A DNA stretch of 64,000 nucleotides from Shigella phage ESh21: sequence record ON528731; one strand, 5' to 3'. The number at the start of each line of letters is the position of its first letter. The first letter of the stretch is position 1. The translations under genes and the position numbers were made by a program. This document shows positions 21,465 to 26,200 of the stretch, piece by piece. The notes beneath the pieces are model-generated. The model had not been told where the DNA came from. It was given only the letters and a program-made list of their open reading frames with translations, and searched no databases.

Positions 21465-21541
21465 CTCTGTTTAGCTCAGCTTGGTAGAGCGTTCCGTTTG
21501 GGGCGGTAAGGCCAGAGGTTCAAGTCCTCTAACAGAGACCA
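21465..21541 (+). tRNA. tRNA-Pro (anticodon UGG)
   Basis: Acceptor CTCTGTT/AACAGAG, T-arm AGAGG-TTCAAGT-CCTCT, loop TTTGGGG, encoded CCA. Confidence 0.65.
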
Positions 21542-21548
21542 AATTAAT

Positions 21549-21623
21549 GTCGTAGAAGGCAAATGGTTAGCCACCTGACCTTCAATCAGTTGCTCGCGGG
21601 TTCGAATCCCGTCTACGACTCCA
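21549..21623 (+). tRNA. tRNA, probably Glu (UUC), non-canonical anticodon loop
   Basis: Acceptor GTCGTAG/CTACGAC perfect, T-arm GCGGG-TTCGAAT-CCCGT; loop CCTTCAA has C at position 33. Confidence 0.5.
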
Positions 21624-21627
21624 AATT

Positions 21628-21702
21628 TGACAGAAGACCAAATACAGCAAACAACTTTTACTTTTCGCGCATAGAAAACATAAAAAGCTTGGTCTGGTCA
21701 TT
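21628..21702 (+). ncRNA. Candidate small structured RNA (Y-RNA-like element E1)
   Basis: 5' CAGAAGACCAA pairs with 3' TTGGTCTGG; internal ACAGCAA motif. Confidence 0.35.
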
Positions 21703-21708
21703 AAGAAT

Positions 21709-21785
21709 CGCGGGTATAGAGAAAGGGCGTCTCACATGTCTCATTAGCATGGCAACGGTTGGTTCGACTCCAACACCCGCCTCCA
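21709..21785 (+). tRNA. tRNA with CAU anticodon (Met or Ile2)
   Basis: T-arm GTTGG-TTCGACT-CCAAC; loop CTCATTA; 1:72 is a C-C mismatch. Confidence 0.5.
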
Positions 21786-21788
21786 AAT

Positions 21789-21860
21789 TTACAGAAGACC
21801 GTTTACAGCAATTTAAAAACAATTTTATCGGAAAATTAAAATGAATACGGTCTGGTAATG
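21789..21860 (+). ncRNA. Candidate small structured RNA (Y-RNA-like element E2)
   Basis: 5' AGACCGT pairs with 3' ACGGTCT; 5' end near-identical to E4. Confidence 0.35.
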
Positions 21861-21868
21861 TTAAACAT

Positions 21869-21945
21869 GGTTAGGAAGCACATAAGGCATGTGCGGTCGG
21901 CTGTTAACCGAATGGCACAGGGTTCGAATCCCTGACTAACCGCCA
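21869..21945 (+). tRNA. tRNA-Asn (anticodon GUU)
   Basis: Loop CTGTTAA, T-arm CAGGG-TTCGAAT-CCCTG, encoded CCA. Confidence 0.65.
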
Positions 21946-21955
21946 AAATTTAAAT

Positions 21956-22043
21956 GCGTCGTTATCCCGTAGATGGAAGCGGTGGCGACTGTAAATCGCT
22001 TGTCATTACGACTCGGTAGGTTCGACTCCTTCACGGCGCACCA
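21956..22043 (+). tRNA. tRNA-Tyr (anticodon GUA), long variable arm
   Basis: Acceptor GCGTCGT/ACGGCGC, loop CTGTAAA, 88 nt. Confidence 0.65.
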
Positions 22044-22049
22044 AATAAA

Positions 22050-22127
22050 GGTTATGTAGTTTAATCTGGTTAAAATACCTCCCTGTCACGGAGGAAGATG
22101 TGGGTTCGAGTCCCATCGTAACCGCCA
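22050..22127 (+). tRNA. tRNA-Asp (anticodon GUC)
   Basis: Anticodon stem CCTCC/GGAGG, loop CTGTCAC, acceptor GGTTATG/CGTAACC. Confidence 0.7.
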
Positions 22128-22188
22128 ATTTTGAGAAGGGCTTTTTTAGCCCCTCCCTTAAAGAGTTCTTGTGAGTATTCTTTAAAGG

Positions 22189-22268
22189 AGCAGAAGACCA
22201 AATTCAGCAAGCAACAAAAATATTTCAAGCCAATTAATTTGAAAAATTTAAAACTTGGTCTGGTTCCA
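22189..22268 (+). ncRNA. Candidate small structured RNA (Y-RNA-like element E3)
   Basis: 5' CAGAAGACCAA pairs with 3' TTGGTCTGG; lies directly upstream of E4. Confidence 0.35.
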
Positions 22269-22275
22269 ACAAATT

Positions 22276-22404
22276 TACAGAAGACCGTTTACAGCAATTT
22301 AAACAATCTAATTCTCTATAAAAGAAAGGGAGAAGGTTCGATTCCTTCACACGTTACGGCGTGTTGGTGTAATGGTAGCACTTAAGATGATATGGTCTGG
22401 TAAT
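22276..22404 (+). ncRNA. Candidate YrlA-like Y RNA with permuted tRNA-like module
   Basis: Terminal helix AGACCGT/ATGGTCT encloses T-arm GAAGG-TTCGATT-CCTTC (22332-22348), closed hairpin ACACG-TTACGG-CGTGT, D-arm-like TGGTGTAATGGTAGCAC; no anticodon arm. Confidence 0.45.
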
Positions 22405-22407
22405 CCT

Positions 22408-22539
22408 CTTTGCAGTGACTTATGGAGCTAATATATCGTCCCATGAGTGCCGATGAATCTCTTGAGCATGATTCTAGATTAGCTTACTAAGAGATGACTC
22501 TACAAACCCTTTAGCAAGGTTTGCGTAGGTTACTGCAAA
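22408..22539 (+). ncRNA. Candidate structured RNA bounded by an 8-bp terminal helix
   Basis: CTTTGCAG at 22408 pairs with CTGCAAAG at 22532; internal hairpins; no tRNA fold found. Confidence 0.3.
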
Positions 22540-24341: not shown

Positions 24342-24356
24342 AATTAGGAGATTCCT

Positions 24357-24569
24357 ATGAAGCCTTATGGTAGACATGGTAAAGTTGAAATTGCAAGTTG
24401 TGGTTGCTGTGCTTCTCACGATGGTGAAGAAGATTACTACAAGTGGCGTACAGACCATCGTAGACGCTTTCTCAGAAGAGATAAGAAGAAAGCTAGACAG
24501 GAATCTCGAAATAATATTGCAGAATTAGTTCAAACGGATAGAGCAGCAGCCTACGAAGTTGTTTGTTAG
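24357..24569 (+). CDS. Small basic Cys-containing ORF whose 3' end overlaps tRNA-Arg
   Basis: AGGAG SD 7 nt upstream of ATG; last ~17 codons lie within the tRNA. Confidence 0.3.
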   Translation: MKPYGRHGKVEIASCGCCASHDGEEDYYKWRTDHRRRFLRRDKKKARQESRNNIAELVQTDRAAAYEVVC

Positions 24570-24595
24570 GGGTTCGAATCCCTTATTCTGCACCA
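24519..24595 (+). tRNA. tRNA-Arg (anticodon ACG)
   Basis: Acceptor GCAGAAT/ATTCTGC perfect, loop CTACGAA. Confidence 0.65.
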
Positions 24596-24614
24596 ATTAC
24601 TAGAAGGTAATTAT

Positions 24615-24842
24615 ATGCGTAAACTCATTATTGAAAAGCATAAAGATGCTGACAAGATTGAAACAACACAAGTTGGGGACACTGACTTCATTCTTGTAGG
24701 TTGGAAATGTGACCCAATAGCAGCTATGAAGGTTGTTCATGGTTTTGCAGGAATTGAATTTAATCAAATCATATTTGAAACGCTATTACCAGAAAATCAG
24801 GATACGTGTAATAACGCATATGTCCTGACAAGAGTTCGTTAG
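24615..24842 (+). CDS. Hypothetical protein inside tRNA array
   Basis: ORF between two tRNAs with plausible SD; stop overlaps start of next tRNA. Confidence 0.4.
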   Translation: MRKLIIEKHKDADKIETTQVGDTDFILVGWKCDPIAAMKVVHGFAGIEFNQIIFETLLPENQDTCNNAYVLTRVR

Positions 24843-24916
24843 GGGATTAGTTTACAAGGTTAAAACCTCGGTCTTTGAAATCGAAGAAGTTGGTTCAATT
24901 CCAACATCCCCCGCCA
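24841..24916 (+). tRNA. tRNA-Gln (anticodon UUG)
   Basis: Loop CTTTGAA, T-arm GTTGG-TTCAATT-CCAAC, D-arm GTTT/AAAC. Confidence 0.6.
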
Positions 24917-24918
24917 AT

Positions 24919-24997
24919 ACTCCATTACTCCAATTGGCAGAGAGGCCAGACTTAAAATCTGTGTTATGTATCGGTTCGAATCCGATATGGAGTACCA
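24919..24997 (+). tRNA. tRNA with anticodon UAA (Leu by anticodon), short variable arm
   Basis: Acceptor ACTCCAT/ATGGAGT perfect, loop CTTAAAA, 79 nt. Confidence 0.5.
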
Positions 24998-25003
24998 AAT
25001 ATT

Positions 25004-25079
25004 AGCAGTGTAGCATAACTGGCAATGCTCCAGCCTCTGAAGCTGAACGATTAAGGTTCAAATCCTTACGCTGCTGCCA
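25004..25079 (+). tRNA. tRNA-Gln (anticodon CUG)
   Basis: Loop CTCTGAA, T-arm TAAGG-TTCAAAT-CCTTA. Confidence 0.55.
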
Positions 25080-25110
25080 CTTCTAAGGGTTCTTACGAGA
25101 GTCCTTAAAT

Positions 25111-25187
25111 GTGGCCTTATCATAAATGGATAATGACCCATGCTGTGAACATGGTCTATACGGGTTCGATTCCCGTAGGTCACCCCA
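25111..25187 (+). tRNA. tRNA-His (anticodon GUG)
   Basis: Anticodon stem CCATG/CATGG, loop CTGTGAA, discriminator C; no encoded G-1. Confidence 0.65.
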
Positions 25188-25193
25188 ATTCAA

Positions 25194-25270
25194 TAGCTCA
25201 ATTAGCTTATATGGTTAAAGCGCGTGTCTGAAAAACATGAGAACAGGGTTCAAATCCCGATGGGCTACCA
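25194..25270 (+). tRNA. tRNA-Phe (anticodon GAA)
   Basis: Loop CTGAAAA; T-stem weak; 3' boundary uncertain. Confidence 0.5.
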
Positions 25271-25285
25271 ATTTATAGGTGCATA

Positions 25286-26020
25286 ATGAAAGAGATGACA
25301 GGACAAGGTAAAGAGATTTTCAGTCTCCTTAAATCCGGTAACGGGTTCTCTAACCCTCTTATTACTGGTGCAGCAGTTCTTGGTGGTACAGTTGCTGCTT
25401 CTCAGTCATTAGTAACTTCTATTGGTTCTGTATCAGACCCAGCTACCCAGCAAATTCTTATTGCTGCTGGCTTGACAACTGCCTTACTAAGCAGCTTTAC
25501 AACAAGCCTTGGTAGCACCACTTCAACGACAACTACTTTAACTGACTATGGACAGAAGTCTGTAGATGAGTTTTCACAACGTATGCAAGTAGCTAAAGGT
25601 TACTCTAACGTTATGGGAGCAGCAGGTGAACAAGTCGGTTGTACACCGTTTAGTGGAATCATGGGAGTTGCTACAGAGTACGGTAACAAAGCTATGGATT
25701 TGATTAATACATCCATAGACGCTGTAAATGGCGTTCTAAGCGATTTACAAGATGCGATTGATAAAGGACTAGACACTATCTCTGAACTCGCTACACAAGC
25801 TGTTACAGCGATTAATGAGGGTATGGCAAAGATTACTGCCTACGCTAATGAAGTGGCTCAGATGATTGCAGATGAAGCAGCCCTGATTGCTGACTACCTT
25901 AAAACGAATATTAACGGTTTTCTTGCTAATGTCTTACCAGATTGGTTTGATGATGCTTGTAAAACTGGTGTGATTGATACAATCGCAACTCCAGAGATGA
26001 AAGATGCTCTAAACAAATAA
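25286..26020 (+). CDS. Hypothetical protein with Ala/Gly/Ser/Thr-rich N-terminal half
   Basis: 244-aa ORF between tRNAs. Confidence 0.55.
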   Translation: MKEMTGQGKEIFSLLKSGNGFSNPLITGAAVLGGTVAASQSLVTSIGSVSDPATQQILIAAGLTTALLSSFTTSLGSTTSTTTTLTDYGQKSVDEFSQRMQVAKGYSNVMGAAGEQVGCTPFSGIMGVATEYGNKAMDLINTSIDAVNGVLSDLQDAIDKGLDTISELATQAVTAINEGMAKITAYANEVAQMIADEAALIADYLKTNINGFLANVLPDWFDDACKTGVIDTIATPEMKDALNK

Positions 26021-26023
26021 TTT

Positions 26024-26116
26024 GGAAGATTAACCCTAAAAGGTAAGGGAGCAGTTTGCTAAACTGCCAGTAACCGAGAAATCGGCGTACCAGTTCAAGT
26101 CTGGTATCTTCCTCCA
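26024..26116 (+). tRNA. tRNA-Ser (anticodon GCU), long variable arm
   Basis: Acceptor GGAAGAT/ATCTTCC perfect, anticodon stem GCAGT/ACTGC, 93 nt. Confidence 0.7.
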
Positions 26117-26123
26117 AATTAAT

Positions 26124-26200
26124 GTGTCGGTGGCAGAAATGGATTATGCGCCTGTCTGCAAAACAGGTATATAAGGGTTCAAGTCCCTTCCGATACTCCA
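26124..26200 (+). tRNA. tRNA-Cys (anticodon GCA)
   Basis: Anticodon stem CCTGT/ACAGG, loop CTGCAAA, T-arm AAGGG-TTCAAGT-CCCTT. Confidence 0.65.

What the first reader, a model, noticed from the sequence alone, without database searches (positions are those of the whole stretch)
21465..26200. Large tRNA array whose anticodons cover all 20 amino acids
Manual folding finds 27 tRNAs with anticodons for every amino acid, including two Lys, two Arg, two Ser, two Gln and two CAU species. Such a complete set is notable for a phage and suggests strong independence from host tRNA pools. Several folds are imperfect, so the count needs software confirmation.
Basis: seen in the sequence. Interest (0 to 1): 0.45.

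Follow-up and report, generated by a model that had tools for sequence, protein, structure and literature searches.

The report
Felix O1-type phage tRNA gene cluster
This is the already-described block of 26 transfer-RNA genes carried by Felix O1/Moogle-like phages; it has no normal tryptophan tRNA, but the gaps between the genes hold an odd tryptophan-like tRNA, a Y-RNA-like element and a tmRNA-like tag template that no one has annotated.

Summary
The array is real and lies exactly at 21465-26200. ARAGORN and Rfam together support 26 tRNA genes for 19 amino acids. Their order matches the published arrays of Mooglevirus phages (Sf17; Sf14 is described as "26 tRNAs, 19 amino acids"). The window is about 90% identical to these phages.

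It is nevertheless a conserved cloverleaf: 8 of 20 pairs show compensatory changes, and it carries a CCA anticodon, A1-U72, G73 and an encoded CCA end. It also has a 9-nt acceptor-to-D connector and a 9-nt anticodon loop. "All 20 amino acids" therefore depends on an untested non-canonical tRNA.

Codons cognate to the phage tRNAs are enriched in phage genes (AGA 21-fold), which fits codon compensation. Independence from the host is not shown.

tRNA genes fill only 43% of the span. The gaps hold:
- a YrlA-like Y RNA, about 1 kb downstream of a Ro60-fold protein gene;
- a tmRNA-like tag template (ANDNVFLAVA**) with no tRNA-like domain, shared with many enterobacterial phages, prophages and phage-plasmids;
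- another structured RNA.

The array is known. The embedded RNAs are the part of interest.

The parts
19884..21299 (+). Ro60-like (TROVE + vWA fold) protein gene immediately upstream of the array
   Evidence: Pfam DUF2828 + DUF7788 and PHROG 850 'RNA-binding protein'. AF2 model pLDDT 88.9. The top 11 Foldseek PDB hits are all Ro60/TROVE proteins, E 1e-8 to 2e-7, full length.
21318..21346 (+). sigma-70-like promoter (TTGACA-17-TAAGAT)
   Evidence: consensus match only
21409..21438 (+). sigma-70-like promoter (TTGACA-18-TATAGT, TG extended), 27 nt before the first tRNA
   Evidence: 11 of 12 matches
21465..21541 (+). tRNA-Pro (UGG)
   Evidence: ARAGORN; Rfam 57.3 bits
21549..21623 (+). tRNA-Glu (UUC) with C33 (anticodon loop CCUUCAA)
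   Evidence: Rfam 53.7 bits. ARAGORN calls it only with -ps. The same allele is in Erwinia M7 and Pectobacterium Arno18.
21627..21701 (+). Y-like stem module (CAGAAGACC...CAGCAA...GGTCTGG) without a tRNA-like domain
   Evidence: model R1, 39.9 bits, E 1e-4
21709..21785 (+). tRNA-Met-1 (CAU), non-canonical: C1.C72 mismatch, U37, U73
   Evidence: ARAGORN. No Rfam hit at E<=10. T stem covaries among relatives.
21788..21859 (+). Y-like stem module without a tRNA-like domain
   Evidence: model R1, 57.5 bits, E 3e-8
21869..21945 (+). tRNA-Asn (GUU)
   Evidence: 45.5 bits
21956..22043 (+). tRNA-Tyr (GUA), long variable arm
   Evidence: ARAGORN. No Rfam hit. Marked pseudo in some relatives.
22050..22127 (+). 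tRNA-Asp (GUC)
   Evidence: 66.1 bits
22190..22267 (+). third copy of the CAGAAGACC...GGTCTGG stem module
   Evidence: read from the sequence; not reported by R1 at E<=1
22274..22404 (+). YrlA-like Y RNA: outer stem, CAGCAA motif, V hairpin, T arm, closed acceptor-like hairpin, D arm, outer stem
   Evidence: MFE fold. Acceptor-like hairpin has 3 compensated pairs among close relatives. With distant copies L012 and L028, 16 of 25 pairs are compensated and 100% are paired.
22407..22541 (+). structured RNA of unknown kind closed by a ~24-bp helix
   Evidence: RNAalifold: 33 pairs, 5 compensated between Moogle- and Felixounavirus
22551..22626 (+). tRNA-Lys (UUU)
   Evidence: 54.4 bits
22631..22707 (+). 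tRNA-Met-2 (CAU); initiator, elongator or Ile2 identity not resolved
   Evidence: 55.6 bits; no E. coli DNA match
22710..22785 (+). tRNA-Ile (GAU)
   Evidence: 62.3 bits
22801..22829 (+). sigma-70-like promoter (TTGACA-17-TATAGT) in front of the tmRNA-like element
   Evidence: 11 of 12 matches
22835..22994 (+). tmRNA-like element without a tRNA-like domain: 5' UAGUUUUCG motif, tag frame 22881-22916 (ANDNVFLAVA**), helix around the stops, hairpin 22928-22949, pseudoknot 22962-22994
   Evidence: Sub-threshold Rfam tmRNA hits. Homologues and covariation. Synonymous-change bias and pseudoknot pairing. Coordinates.
23035..23111 (+). tRNA-Arg (UCU)
   Evidence: 62.8 bits
23213..23241 (+). sigma-70-like promoter (TTGACA-17-TAAGCT) just upstream of the Trp-like element
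   Evidence: read from the sequence; not listed by the scan
23254..23336 (+). non-canonical tRNA-Trp-like RNA (anticodon CCA, A1-U72, G73, encoded CCA, 9-nt connector GAUGUUAAG, 9-nt anticodon loop)
   Evidence: 8 of 20 pairs compensated and 95% paired on a MAFFT alignment. Conserved in ~230 genomes and never annotated as tRNA. Its model's best outside hits are canonical phage tRNA-Trp genes.
23350..23439 (+). tRNA-Ser (UGA); 3' end GCCU, no full CCA encoded
   Evidence: (33.2 bits)
23687..23764 (+). tRNA-Leu (UAG), short variable loop
   Evidence: (38.9 bits)
23772..23847 (+). tRNA-Lys (CUU)
   Evidence: 56.9 bits
23854..23929 (+). tRNA-Ala (UGC), G3.U70
   Evidence: (62.7 bits)
23936..24010 (+). 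tRNA-Gly (UCC)
   Evidence: 59.6 bits
24017..24093 (+). tRNA-Thr (UGU)
   Evidence: 51.5 bits
24188..24262 (+). tRNA-Val (UAC)
   Evidence: 55.8 bits
24264..24341 (+). tRNA-Leu (CAA), short variable loop
   Evidence: (44.0 bits)
24357..24569 (+). small ORF (70 aa, phrog_10765) overlapping tRNA-Arg(ACG) by 51 nt
   Evidence: also annotated in Sf17 and Michonne
24519..24595 (+). tRNA-Arg (ACG)
   Evidence: 58.3 bits
24615..24842 (+). small ORF (75 aa, phrog_14202)
24841..24916 (+). tRNA-Gln (UUG)
   Evidence: 56.6 bits
24919..24997 (+). tRNA-Leu (UAA), short variable loop
   Evidence: (48.3 bits)
25004..25079 (+). tRNA-Gln (CUG)
   Evidence: 58.1 bits
25111..25187 (+). tRNA-His (GUG), no encoded G-1, C73
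   Evidence: ARAGORN; Rfam 49.3 bits in the sensitive scan only; sequence
25195..25270 (+). tRNA-Phe (GAA)
   Evidence: 39.2 bits
25286..26020 (+). DUF7217 protein gene inside the array (annotated as a predicted membrane protein in relatives)
   Evidence: Pfam 3e-82; same position in relatives
26024..26116 (+). tRNA-Ser (GCU)
   Evidence: 46.0 bits
26124..26200 (+). tRNA-Cys (GCA)
   Evidence: 56.7 bits
26234..26293 (+). long hairpin followed by a T run (terminator-like) after the last tRNA
   Evidence: read from the sequence; a terminator is annotated at the equivalent place in Michonne
26359..26382 (+). terminator-like hairpin followed by TTTTTT

Best explanation
The region is the tRNA/small-RNA gene cluster of an Ounavirinae (Mooglevirus-like, Felix O1-type) virulent phage. 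It lies between a Ro60-like protein gene and the terminase genes.

Shown here:
- It holds 26 tRNA genes for 19 amino acids, all on the + strand, and 25 of them have the CCA end encoded.
- Several near-consensus sigma-70 promoters sit inside and in front of it, and terminator-like hairpins follow the last tRNA.
- The anticodons are mostly U34 or G34 species. Their cognate codons are over-represented in the AT-rich phage genes relative to a sample of E. coli genes.

Inferred:
- The genes are transcribed as a few polycistronic precursors and cut out by host RNase P and 3'-processing enzymes.
- The tRNAs top up the host pool for codons that are rare in the host (AGA, ACA, AAG, UCA, GUA, GGA, UUA, CUA). 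This speeds phage translation rather than making the phage independent of the host.

Tryptophan has no canonical gene. A conserved, structurally aberrant tRNA-Trp-like RNA may or may not serve that role.

The stretches between the tRNA genes are not junk. They encode at least three further conserved structured RNAs:
- a YrlA-like Y RNA, the likely partner of the adjacent Ro60-like protein;
- a tmRNA-like tag template without a tRNA-like domain;
- an RNA closed by a long helix.
For: Identity of the cluster:
- 25 + 1 tRNAs by ARAGORN and Rfam.
- 90-91% DNA identity over the full 4.9 kb to Citrobacter and Shigella Moogleviruses. 233 phage records cover at least 80% of it.
- The gene order is identical to the 26 annotated tRNAs of Sf17, with the same flanks (DUF2828 protein upstream, DUF7217 protein inside, terminase downstream).
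- The literature reports Felix O1 with 22, wV8 with 23 and Sf14 with '26 tRNAs recognizing 19 amino acids'.

Expression signals:
- TTGACA-N17/18-TATAGT promoters at 21409 and 22801, and a terminator-like hairpin at 26359.

Codon compensation:
- Phage GC3 is 0.33.
- Codons cognate to the phage tRNAs have mean log2 enrichment +0.59 against -0.62 for the other codons (Mann-Whitney p = 0.02).
- Individual enrichments: AGA 21x, ACA 4.3x, AAG 3.7x, UCA 2.8x.
- The Sf14 study reached the same conclusion.

Embedded RNAs:
- Trp-like element.
- Ro60 fold of the upstream protein.
- YrlA-like element, with compensated copies in two distant Ro60-encoding phage contigs.
- tmRNA-like element.
Against: - No expression, processing or charging data exist for this phage. 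Promoter and terminator calls are consensus matches, and the scan found no more promoter-like sites than in shuffled sequence (11 vs 14.0).
- The codon comparison uses only 31 E. coli genes as a host proxy, and the true host is unknown.
- Morphogenesis genes are not better adapted than other genes.
- The tRNA genes of the related phage Bas63 were mostly dispensable on four laboratory hosts.
- Several tRNAs depart from canonical features: Glu has C33; Met-1 has a 1-72 mismatch and U37; His lacks G-1; the Leu tRNAs lack the long variable arm. In Sf14, 14 of 26 tRNAs were isotype-inconsistent in tRNAscan-SE 2.0. Some may therefore be poorly charged or serve other roles.
Confidence: 0.85

Rival explanations
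1. Defence evasion or replacement. The phage tRNAs exist mainly to keep translation running when host tRNAs are cleaved or depleted by anticodon nucleases, PARIS, retron effectors or host shut-off. On this view the odd anticodon loops make the phage copies resistant, and the Ro60-like protein with its Y-like RNA belongs to the same tRNA-centred counter-defence.
For: - Non-canonical anticodon-arm features are conserved across distant relatives. Glu keeps C33 in the window, Erwinia M7 and Arno18. Met-1 keeps U37. The Trp-like RNA keeps a 9-nt loop with a non-pairing 31-39 position.
- The Bas63 orthologue of the Ro60-like protein was identified as a counter to the 'ppl' defence system, and the Bas63 tRNAs were suggested to be conditionally useful.
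- Published precedents exist for phage tRNAs that evade tRNA-targeting defences (eLife 2023 PMC10264068; Nat Commun 2024 PMC11555353; both listed).
Against: - The Sf14 study judged nuclease evasion unlikely for its host, which carries only VapC, a nuclease that targets fMet.
- No defence system or nuclease was tested here.
- The strong match between the anticodons and phage-enriched codons is already explained by codon compensation.
- The two models are not mutually exclusive.
Confidence: 0.35
2. The 27th element is a working tRNA-Trp, so the set really does cover all 20 amino acids.
For: - Trp is the only amino acid without a canonical gene, and the element carries the CCA anticodon in a YUCCAA loop core.
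- It has A1-U72 and G73, which are E. coli TrpRS identity elements (own knowledge, Himeno et al. 1991), and an encoded 3' CCA.
- All four helices are kept by compensatory changes in four lineages.
- It is conserved in about 230 genomes.
- The best outside hits of its covariance model are canonical phage tRNA-Trp genes (38.3 and 37.9 bits).
- The canonical tRNA-Trp of Erwinia phage M7 also has a mismatched 31-39 pair, giving the same CUUCCAAAC loop as the Arno18 copy.
Against: - There are nine nucleotides instead of two between the acceptor and D stems, and the anticodon loop is 9 nt, or 7 nt closed by C.A.
- Rfam's tRNA model gives no match at E<=10, and ARAGORN finds it only at 80% stringency with a different fold.
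- tRNAscan-SE never annotated it in relatives.
- The predicted fold is no more stable than that of shuffled sequence (z = -0.81).
- Whether such a shape fits TrpRS, EF-Tu and the ribosome is unknown. It could equally be a decoy or regulatory tRNA mimic.
Confidence: 0.35
3. Much of the array is evolutionary debris. On this view the odd tRNAs (Met-1, Tyr, His, Trp-like) and the inter-tRNA sequences are decaying tRNA pseudogenes and scars left by homing endonucleases, with no function.
For: - Relatives carry HNH endonuclease genes inserted between tRNAs and have lost individual tRNAs. Felix O1 lacks Met-2, Arg-UCU and both Ser genes; Mushroom lacks Arg-ACG.
- Tyr and His are flagged as pseudo in some annotations.
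- The tRNA genes were mostly non-essential in Bas63.
Against: - Every inter-tRNA element examined keeps its helices through compensatory substitutions across genera: Trp-like 8 of 20 pairs; YrlA-like 16 of 25; both tmRNA-like pseudoknot stems and its hairpin; the Met-1 T stem.
- The tag frame keeps exactly 10 codons plus a stop, with a strong excess of synonymous changes.
- Pseudogenes would not behave in this way.
Confidence: 0.1

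Closest known systems
tRNA clusters of Ounavirinae: Felix O1 (22 tRNAs), wV8 (23), Mooglevirus Sf13/Sf14/Sf17/Moogle/Michonne (25-26)
   Same: The window is about 90% identical in DNA over the whole array and has the same tRNA order as Sf17. The flanking genes are the same, and Trp is missing in both.
   Different: This phage carries the Erwinia/Pectobacterium-type tRNA-Glu allele (C33) and the Felix-type tRNA-Leu(UAG) allele, where Moogle and Sf17 have other alleles. There is no HNH endonuclease insertion inside the array.
Kolesnikvirus array (Erwinia phage vB_EamM-M7)
   Same: It belongs to the same subfamily and has the same Pro-Glu start of the array. It also carries the tmRNA-like element (tag ANDAQFLAVA**).
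   Different: M7 has 28 tRNAs, including a canonical tRNA-Trp(CCA) between Gly and Thr, so it covers all 20 amino acids. It lacks the Ro60-like gene directly upstream of the array.
YrlA-type bacterial and phage Y RNAs with Ro60/Rsr (Chen et al. 2014, PMC4201824)
   Same: The module order is the same: stem, V, T arm, acceptor-like stem-loop, D arm, stem. Like YrlA, it is encoded next to a Ro60-fold protein gene. Variants with a 7-bp acceptor-like stem followed by NCCA (Moogle, L028) resemble M. smegmatis YrlA, which is cut by RNase P and receives CCA.
   Different: There is no match to Rfam YrlA (RF02553) at this position, and the GNCGAAN0-1G Ro-binding motif is absent. Instead a UNUACAGCAA motif is invariant. 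The protein belongs to the DUF2828/DUF7788 families rather than an annotated TROVE family. Three extra stem-only copies are present.
tmRNA (ssrA), two-piece permuted tmRNA, and the TLD-only tmRNA of mycobacteriophage DS6A
   Same: The element has a tag frame beginning GCA AAC GA.., like E. coli ANDENYALAA, with U(-5)A(-4) before the resume codon. It has no start codon. The stops lie in a helix and are followed by a hairpin and an H-type pseudoknot. Sub-threshold Rfam tmRNA hits cover only the mRNA-like part.
   Different: No acceptor stem or T arm with G3.U70 is linked to it or found anywhere in the 64 kb. It is below the Rfam gathering score, and ARAGORN calls no tmRNA in the window. It is the converse of DS6A, which keeps only the tRNA-like domain.
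tRNA clusters of T4 and T5 coliphages (own knowledge)
   Same: These are also clustered, CCA-encoding tRNA genes interspersed with small ORFs and small stable RNAs, and they are thought to supplement the host tRNA pool.
   Different: They are unrelated in sequence and genomic context. This comparison was not tested here.

Membership tests
Ounavirinae (Felix O1/Moogle-type) tRNA cluster | DNA similarity across the whole array to named members | tested here: met
   90-91% identity over 99-100% of 4.9 kb to Mooglevirus genomes; 233 records cover at least 80%
Ounavirinae (Felix O1/Moogle-type) tRNA cluster | Same gene order and flanks (RNA-binding/DUF2828 protein upstream, DUF7217 protein inside, terminase downstream) | tested here: met
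   Identical order of the 26 tRNAs to Sf17; flanks shown
Canonical tRNA (Rfam RF00005) | Score at or above the gathering threshold (29 bits) | tested here: met
   Met for 24 of 26, scoring 33-66 bits. Not met for Met-1 (21709) and Tyr (21956), which only ARAGORN calls.
tRNA-Trp (for 23254-23336) | Anticodon CCA, discriminator G73, A1-U72, 3' CCA | tested here: met
   Read from the sequence and invariant in the alignment, except the 1-72 and 2-71 pairs, which are compensated in Arno18. That these are TrpRS identity elements rests on my own knowledge.
tRNA-Trp (for 23254-23336) | Canonical cloverleaf geometry (2-nt 8-9 connector, 7-nt anticodon loop) and detection by tRNA software | tested here: not met
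   9-nt connector and 9-nt loop. No Rfam hit at E<=10. ARAGORN finds it only at 80% stringency.
tRNA-Trp (for 23254-23336) | Aminoacylation with Trp and decoding of UGG | not testable with these tools
   Needs charging assays or tRNA sequencing
YrlA-type Y RNA | Encoded near a Ro60 orthologue | tested here: met
   The Ro60-fold protein gene ends 975 nt upstream. Distant copies in L012 and L028 also lie beside homologues of the protein.
YrlA-type Y RNA | Stem / V / T arm / acceptor-like stem-loop / D arm architecture supported by covariation | tested here: met
   (16 of 25 pairs compensated; the alignment was fitted to the model); architecture as described
YrlA-type Y RNA | Match to Rfam RF02553 and the GNCGAAN0-1G Ro-binding motif | tested here: not met
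   No RF02553 hit at this place. The motif is absent from 20801-26800 on both strands.
YrlA-type Y RNA | Binding to the Ro60-like protein | not testable with these tools
   Needs immunoprecipitation of the protein from infected cells
tmRNA | Tag reading frame without a start codon, resume-codon context, stops in a helix, downstream pseudoknot | tested here: met
   (58 synonymous / 91 non-synonymous codon differences in the tag frame against 2/157 and 16/127 in the other frames)
tmRNA | tRNA-like domain (acceptor stem with G3.U70, T arm, CCA) in the same molecule or in a paired piece | tested here: not met
   ARAGORN finds no tmRNA in the window. No spare T arm other than the YrlA-like and Trp-like elements, and neither has G3.U70.
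tmRNA | Rfam gathering score (47 bits) | tested here: not met
   RF04321 scores 30.3 bits and RF00023 scores 12.9 bits

The most novel reading that the evidence does not exclude
The 'tRNA array' may really be an operon-like collection of tRNAs and tRNA/tmRNA mimics. Three readings make up this case.

1. The element at 22835-22994 belongs to an unrecognised, widespread family of phage-borne tag templates that lack a tRNA-like domain. The tags follow the pattern AN[DE]xx[FYV]L[AM][VA]A. The family occurs in Ounavirinae, Kuttervirus, Schitoviridae, 46-kb siphophages, lambdoid prophages and SSU5-like phage-plasmids. It would either be decoded by trans-translation through an unknown partner, or it would manipulate the host tmRNA-SmpB system.

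2. The Trp-like RNA is a working non-canonical tRNA that completes the 20-amino-acid set.

3. The YrlA-like RNA and its stem-only copies are the RNA partners of the phage Ro60-like counter-defence protein.
Probability: 0.3. Interest if true: 0.75.

Novelty: new member of a known kind. Interest (0 to 1): 0.4.

Why it matters
The array itself adds little. Large tRNA clusters are a textbook trait of Felix O1-like phages, and a 2025 paper already analysed the 26-tRNA, 19-amino-acid set of a close relative.

What could matter is that less than half of the 'array' is tRNA genes. The rest is conserved structured RNA that annotation pipelines skip.
- If the Trp-like RNA is charged, it shows how far a tRNA can depart from the cloverleaf and still work, and it changes the count of phages with full tRNA sets.
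- The YrlA-like element gives a concrete candidate for the Y RNA that a recent preprint only guessed at for the Ro60-like counter-defence protein of these phages.
- The tmRNA-like tag template is found in hundreds of phage, prophage and phage-plasmid records, always unannotated. This makes a direct question testable: do phages tag proteins, or interfere with ribosome rescue, using a template that has no tRNA-like domain of its own?

Tried and rejected
- Single-sequence AlphaFold of the upstream protein gave a useless model (pLDDT 40). It was replaced by a run with a 49-sequence alignment.
- Sequence searches of that protein against PDB, as a single sequence and as a profile, gave only insignificant hits (TROVE at E = 0.21). 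Only the fold search was conclusive.
- Rfam YrlA does not match the YrlA-like element. Its one weak YrlA hit (25133-25256, 21.6 bits) simply overlaps tRNA-His and tRNA-Phe.
- The GNCGAAN0-1G Ro-binding motif was searched for and not found.
- ARAGORN in tmRNA mode finds nothing in the window at default or relaxed thresholds. The 'permuted tmRNA' it calls in Moogle and HP1 spans 749 nt and three tRNA genes. I regard it as an artefact that joins the YrlA-like element to the separate tag template. Other relaxed-threshold calls (AQLQTSSKLA*) look like false positives.
- A scan of the 64 kb for a tRNA-like partner of the tag template (T-arm motifs, G3.U70 acceptor stems) found none. T-arm-like pieces near the homologues in Kuttervirus, M7 and a prophage were inspected by eye without a consistent picture.
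- Classifying tRNA-Met-2 as initiator, elongator or Ile2 by similarity to E. coli failed because there was no match.
- Morphogenesis genes and other genes showed no difference in use of codons cognate to the phage tRNAs.
- Supplement look-ups in the tmRNA database paper and in Chen et al. 2014 for Felix O1-type entries returned nothing.

Full report
**Observation.** ARAGORN at default settings finds 25 tRNA genes. All are on the + strand, all lie between 21465 and 26200, and none is found elsewhere in the 64-kb window. Rfam's tRNA model passes its gathering score at 23 places, including one that ARAGORN missed, 21549-21620 at 53.7 bits. A more sensitive scan adds tRNA-His at 49.3 bits. ARAGORN calls the missing gene as tRNA-Glu(UUC) once its threshold is lowered to 95%.

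The total is 26 tRNAs: Pro, Glu, Met(CAU) x2, Asn, Tyr, Asp, Lys x2, Ile, Arg x2, Ser x2, Leu x3, Ala, Gly, Thr, Val, Gln x2, His, Phe and Cys. That is 19 amino acids, with no Trp. Two genes, Met-1 (21709-21785) and Tyr (21956-22043), are supported by ARAGORN only. The 27th call can only be the Trp-like element at 23254-23336, discussed below.

**What the region is.** The 4.9 kb is 90-91% identical over its full length to Citrobacter and Shigella Moogleviruses and 85-87% identical to Felixounaviruses. In total 300 phage records match and 233 of them cover at least 80%. Sf17 is annotated with exactly the same 26 tRNAs in the same order and with the same neighbours: a DUF2828 protein upstream, a predicted membrane protein inside the array, and terminase downstream.

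The literature describes 22 tRNAs in Felix O1 and 23 in wV8. [quoted passage not shown] The array is therefore a known feature of a known phage subfamily, and the window comes from a new close relative.

**Expression signals and layout.** Near-consensus sigma-70 promoters lie at 21409 (TTGACA-18-TATAGT) and 22801 (TTGACA-17-TATAGT), with weaker ones at 21318 and 23213. Terminator-like hairpins follow the last tRNA. These are consensus matches only, and the region has no more promoter-like sites than shuffled sequence. All tRNAs except Ser(UGA) have the CCA end encoded. tRNA genes occupy 2034 of the 4736 nt.

**How it most likely works.** Phage ORFs in the window have GC3 of 0.33. I compared them with 31 annotated E. 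coli genes. Codons that are Watson-Crick cognate to the phage tRNAs are enriched in the phage, with mean log2 +0.59 against -0.62 for the others (Mann-Whitney p = 0.02). The strongest cases are AGA 21-fold, ACA 4.3-fold, AAG 3.7-fold, UCA 2.8-fold, GUA 2.3-fold and GGA 2.2-fold. This is the classical codon-compensation pattern.

It falls short of independence from the host:
- Only 50% of phage codons have a cognate phage tRNA, and 75% are covered under simple wobble rules.
- Morphogenesis genes are no better matched than the rest.
- In the related phage Bas63 the tRNA genes were mostly non-essential on four laboratory strains.

A second, non-exclusive model is replacement of host tRNAs that are attacked by defence nucleases (papers listed). 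It gains some support from conserved oddities. tRNA-Glu has C33 in this phage, in Erwinia M7 and in Pectobacterium Arno18. Met-1 keeps a 1-72 mismatch, U37 and U73 while its T stem covaries. His lacks an encoded G-1. All three Leu tRNAs have short variable loops.

**The Trp-like element (23254-23336).** It reads AUGGGAC-GAUGUUAAG-A-CAC-UAAGGCAU-GUG-C-GUAAG-CCUCCAAAA-CUUAC-UCAA-AGGGG-UUCGAUU-CCUCC-GUCCCAU-G-CCA. It has a 7-bp acceptor stem, and G8 could pair with the C before the 3' strand to give an 8/4 stack. It also has a T arm, a 3-bp D stem, a 5-bp anticodon stem, the triplet CCA in the centre of a 9-nt loop, G73 and an encoded CCA.

It departs from a tRNA in two ways: nine nucleotides instead of two link the acceptor and D stems, and the anticodon loop is 9 nt long. 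The region is conserved at 86-100% identity in about 230 Ounavirinae genomes and is never annotated as a tRNA.

On a MAFFT alignment of six sequences from four lineages, 95% of cells pair and 8 of 20 pairs show compensatory changes. Versions with the pairing partner slid by 1-3 columns show none. The anticodon stem alone occurs as GUAAG/CUUAC, GACGG/CCGUU, AACGG/CCGUU and GUAGG/CCUAC. A covariance model built from it scores canonical phage tRNA-Trp genes highest among more than 140 tRNAs (38.3 and 37.9 bits).

Erwinia phage M7 has a canonical tRNA-Trp at another position in its array, giving 28 tRNAs for 20 amino acids. Its anticodon stem also ends in a mismatch, which gives the same CUUCCAAAC loop as the Arno18 copy.

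The element is therefore a selected, tRNA-Trp-derived RNA. Whether it is charged and decodes UGG (11.8 codons per thousand in the phage) cannot be decided here. Its predicted fold is no more stable than that of shuffled sequence (z = -0.81).

**Ro60-like protein and YrlA-like RNA.** The gene ending at 21299 matches Pfam DUF2828 + DUF7788 and PHROG 850 'RNA-binding protein'. Sequence searches against PDB were inconclusive. An AlphaFold model built on 49 homologues (pLDDT 88.9) has Ro60/TROVE proteins as its 11 best PDB matches, full length, at E 1e-8 to 2e-7. These come from Thermus phage phiLo, Xenopus, human and Deinococcus. They are followed by a large gap down to vWA-only domains. A preprint on Bas63 reports the same fold for the orthologue gp130, identifies it as a counter to the ppl defence system, and speculates that some 'tRNAs' downstream might be Y RNAs. 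Homologues of the protein (39-44% identity) sit beside tRNA arrays in many unrelated viral contigs.

At 22274-22404 the sequence folds into the following, in order:
- an outer stem (UUAC/GUAA and AGACCG/UGGUCU, with an AGA/G internal loop);
- a V hairpin;
- a T arm (GAAGG-UUCGAUU-CCUUC);
- a closed acceptor-like hairpin;
- a D arm (GUG-UAAUGGUAG-CAC).

This is the module order described for YrlA Y RNAs. The acceptor-like hairpin exists in three fully compensated versions. The Moogle version has 7 bp followed by GCCA.

A covariance model finds full-length copies in two distant phage contigs that also encode the Ro60-like protein: L012 at 68.9 bits and L028 at 35.2 bits. On the resulting alignment 16 of 25 pairs are compensated and every cell pairs, with the caveat that the alignment was fitted to the model. 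A UNUACAGCAA motif is invariant.

Three shorter copies of the outer-stem module, without the tRNA-like part, lie at 21627-21701, 21788-21859 and 22190-22267. Rfam's YrlA model does not match, and the published Ro-binding motif is absent. I therefore call it YrlA-like rather than a member of that family.

**tmRNA-like element.** Downstream of the promoter at 22801 lies GCA AAC GAU AAU GUU UUU CUG GCA GUA GCU UAA UAG, which reads ANDNVFLAVA** (22881-22916). It resembles the E. coli ssrA tag region in both sequence and upstream context. Rfam's tmRNA models hit only this part and stay below threshold. ARAGORN calls no tmRNA in the window. In Moogle and HP1 it reports a 749-nt 'permuted tmRNA' that joins the YrlA-like element to this tag across three tRNA genes. 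That call is the source of the one-line 'ssrA' remark in the Moogle genome announcement.

Homologous elements exist in many groups, each with its own tag:
- Felixounaviruses;
- Erwinia M7 (ANDAQFLAVA**);
- Kuttervirus (ANDNTFLAVA*);
- the N4-like phage Pollock (ANDDVVLMAA**);
- 46-kb Klebsiella and E. coli phages (ANEEMYLAVA*);
- lambdoid prophages, between Q and the holin gene;
- ~110-kb phage-plasmids (ANEEVYLAVA**).

In all, 640 phage records, 749 plasmids and 353 of 5426 E. coli genomes match. The matching stretches carry no RNA annotation.

Across eight lineages the frame is always 10 codons plus a stop and has no start codon. Four lineages have an in-frame stop eight codons upstream. Pairwise codon differences are 58 synonymous to 91 non-synonymous in this frame, against 2/157 and 16/127 in the other two frames. 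A CUGG/CCAG helix encloses the stops. It is followed by a hairpin and an H-type pseudoknot whose stems all covary.

No tRNA-like domain is attached. The only spare T arms in the window belong to the YrlA-like and Trp-like elements, and neither has G3.U70. Curated tmRNA collections list other phage tmRNAs but, as far as I could read, not these. How such a template would be decoded, or whether it acts as a decoy for tmRNA-SmpB, remains unexplained.

**Verdict.** As a tRNA array this is a new member of a well-known kind. The value of the locus lies in the conserved, unannotated RNAs between the tRNA genes.

Noticed in passing
window 22835-22994 (tag 22881-22916); also L066 ~2955-3130, L069 ~1460-1640, L070, L071, L072: A tmRNA-like tag template with no tRNA-like domain (ANDNVFLAVA** here). 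It is shared with Kuttervirus, N4-like and 46-kb phages, lambdoid prophages (between Q and holin) and SSU5-like phage-plasmids, and the matching stretches carry no RNA annotation. The frame is under coding-type selection, and the hairpin and pseudoknot covary.
   Followed up: partly
window 22274-22404, with stem-only copies at 21627-21701, 21788-21859 and 22190-22267: A YrlA-like Y RNA (stem, V, T arm, closed acceptor hairpin, D arm) about 1 kb downstream of a Ro60-fold protein gene. Compensated copies occur in the distant phage contigs L012 (4039-4169) and L028 (2636-2767).
   Followed up: yes
window 19884-21299: The DUF2828/DUF7788 'RNA-binding protein' has a Ro60/TROVE + vWA fold. Homologues at 39-44% identity sit next to large tRNA arrays in many unrelated IMG/VR contigs, including jumbo phages.
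   Followed up: yes
window 22407-22541: An RNA of about 135 nt closed by a ~24-bp helix. The helix is conserved, with compensatory changes between Moogle- and Felixounaviruses. Function unknown.
   Followed up: partly
window 21549-23764 (tRNA-Glu 21549-21623 and tRNA-Leu(UAG) 23687-23764): tRNA-Glu and tRNA-Leu(UAG) each exist as two unrelated alleles that are swapped among close relatives. This phage combines the Erwinia/Pectobacterium-type Glu (C33) with the Felix-type Leu(UAG), which points to cassette-like exchange within the array.
   Followed up: partly
window 23687-24997 (tRNA-Leu genes at 23687-23764, 24264-24341, 24919-24997): All three tRNA-Leu genes have 5-7-nt variable loops instead of the long arm of bacterial tRNA-Leu. 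All three keep A73.
   Followed up: no
window 25111-25187: tRNA-His has C73 but no encoded G-1 (the upstream base is T). Some relatives annotate it as a pseudo-tRNA.
   Followed up: no
window 21709-21785: tRNA-Met-1 has a 1-72 mismatch (C.C here; U.C or A.C in relatives), U37 and U73. These are conserved across genera while the T stem covaries. Rfam's tRNA model does not detect it.
   Followed up: partly
window 24357-24842 (ORFs 24357-24569 and 24615-24842): Two small conserved ORFs (phrog_10765, phrog_14202) lie inside the array. The first overlaps tRNA-Arg(ACG) by 51 nt, and the second ends 2 nt inside tRNA-Gln(UUG).
   Followed up: no
L064 4361-4528 (Erwinia phage M7): An RNA of about 167 nt with a 7-bp acceptor stem, a T arm and GCCA, but a long internal region instead of D and anticodon arms. 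It sits directly upstream of the promoter of the M7 tag template. Its 5' end (GGGUGAUUCUG) recalls the tmRNA 5' end, but it has G2.U71 rather than G3.U70.
   Followed up: no
L061 (Felix O1) and L002 (Michonne) compared with the window: HNH homing-endonuclease genes are inserted between tRNA genes in relatives, and neighbouring tRNAs have been lost there. The window's array has no such insertion.
   Followed up: no
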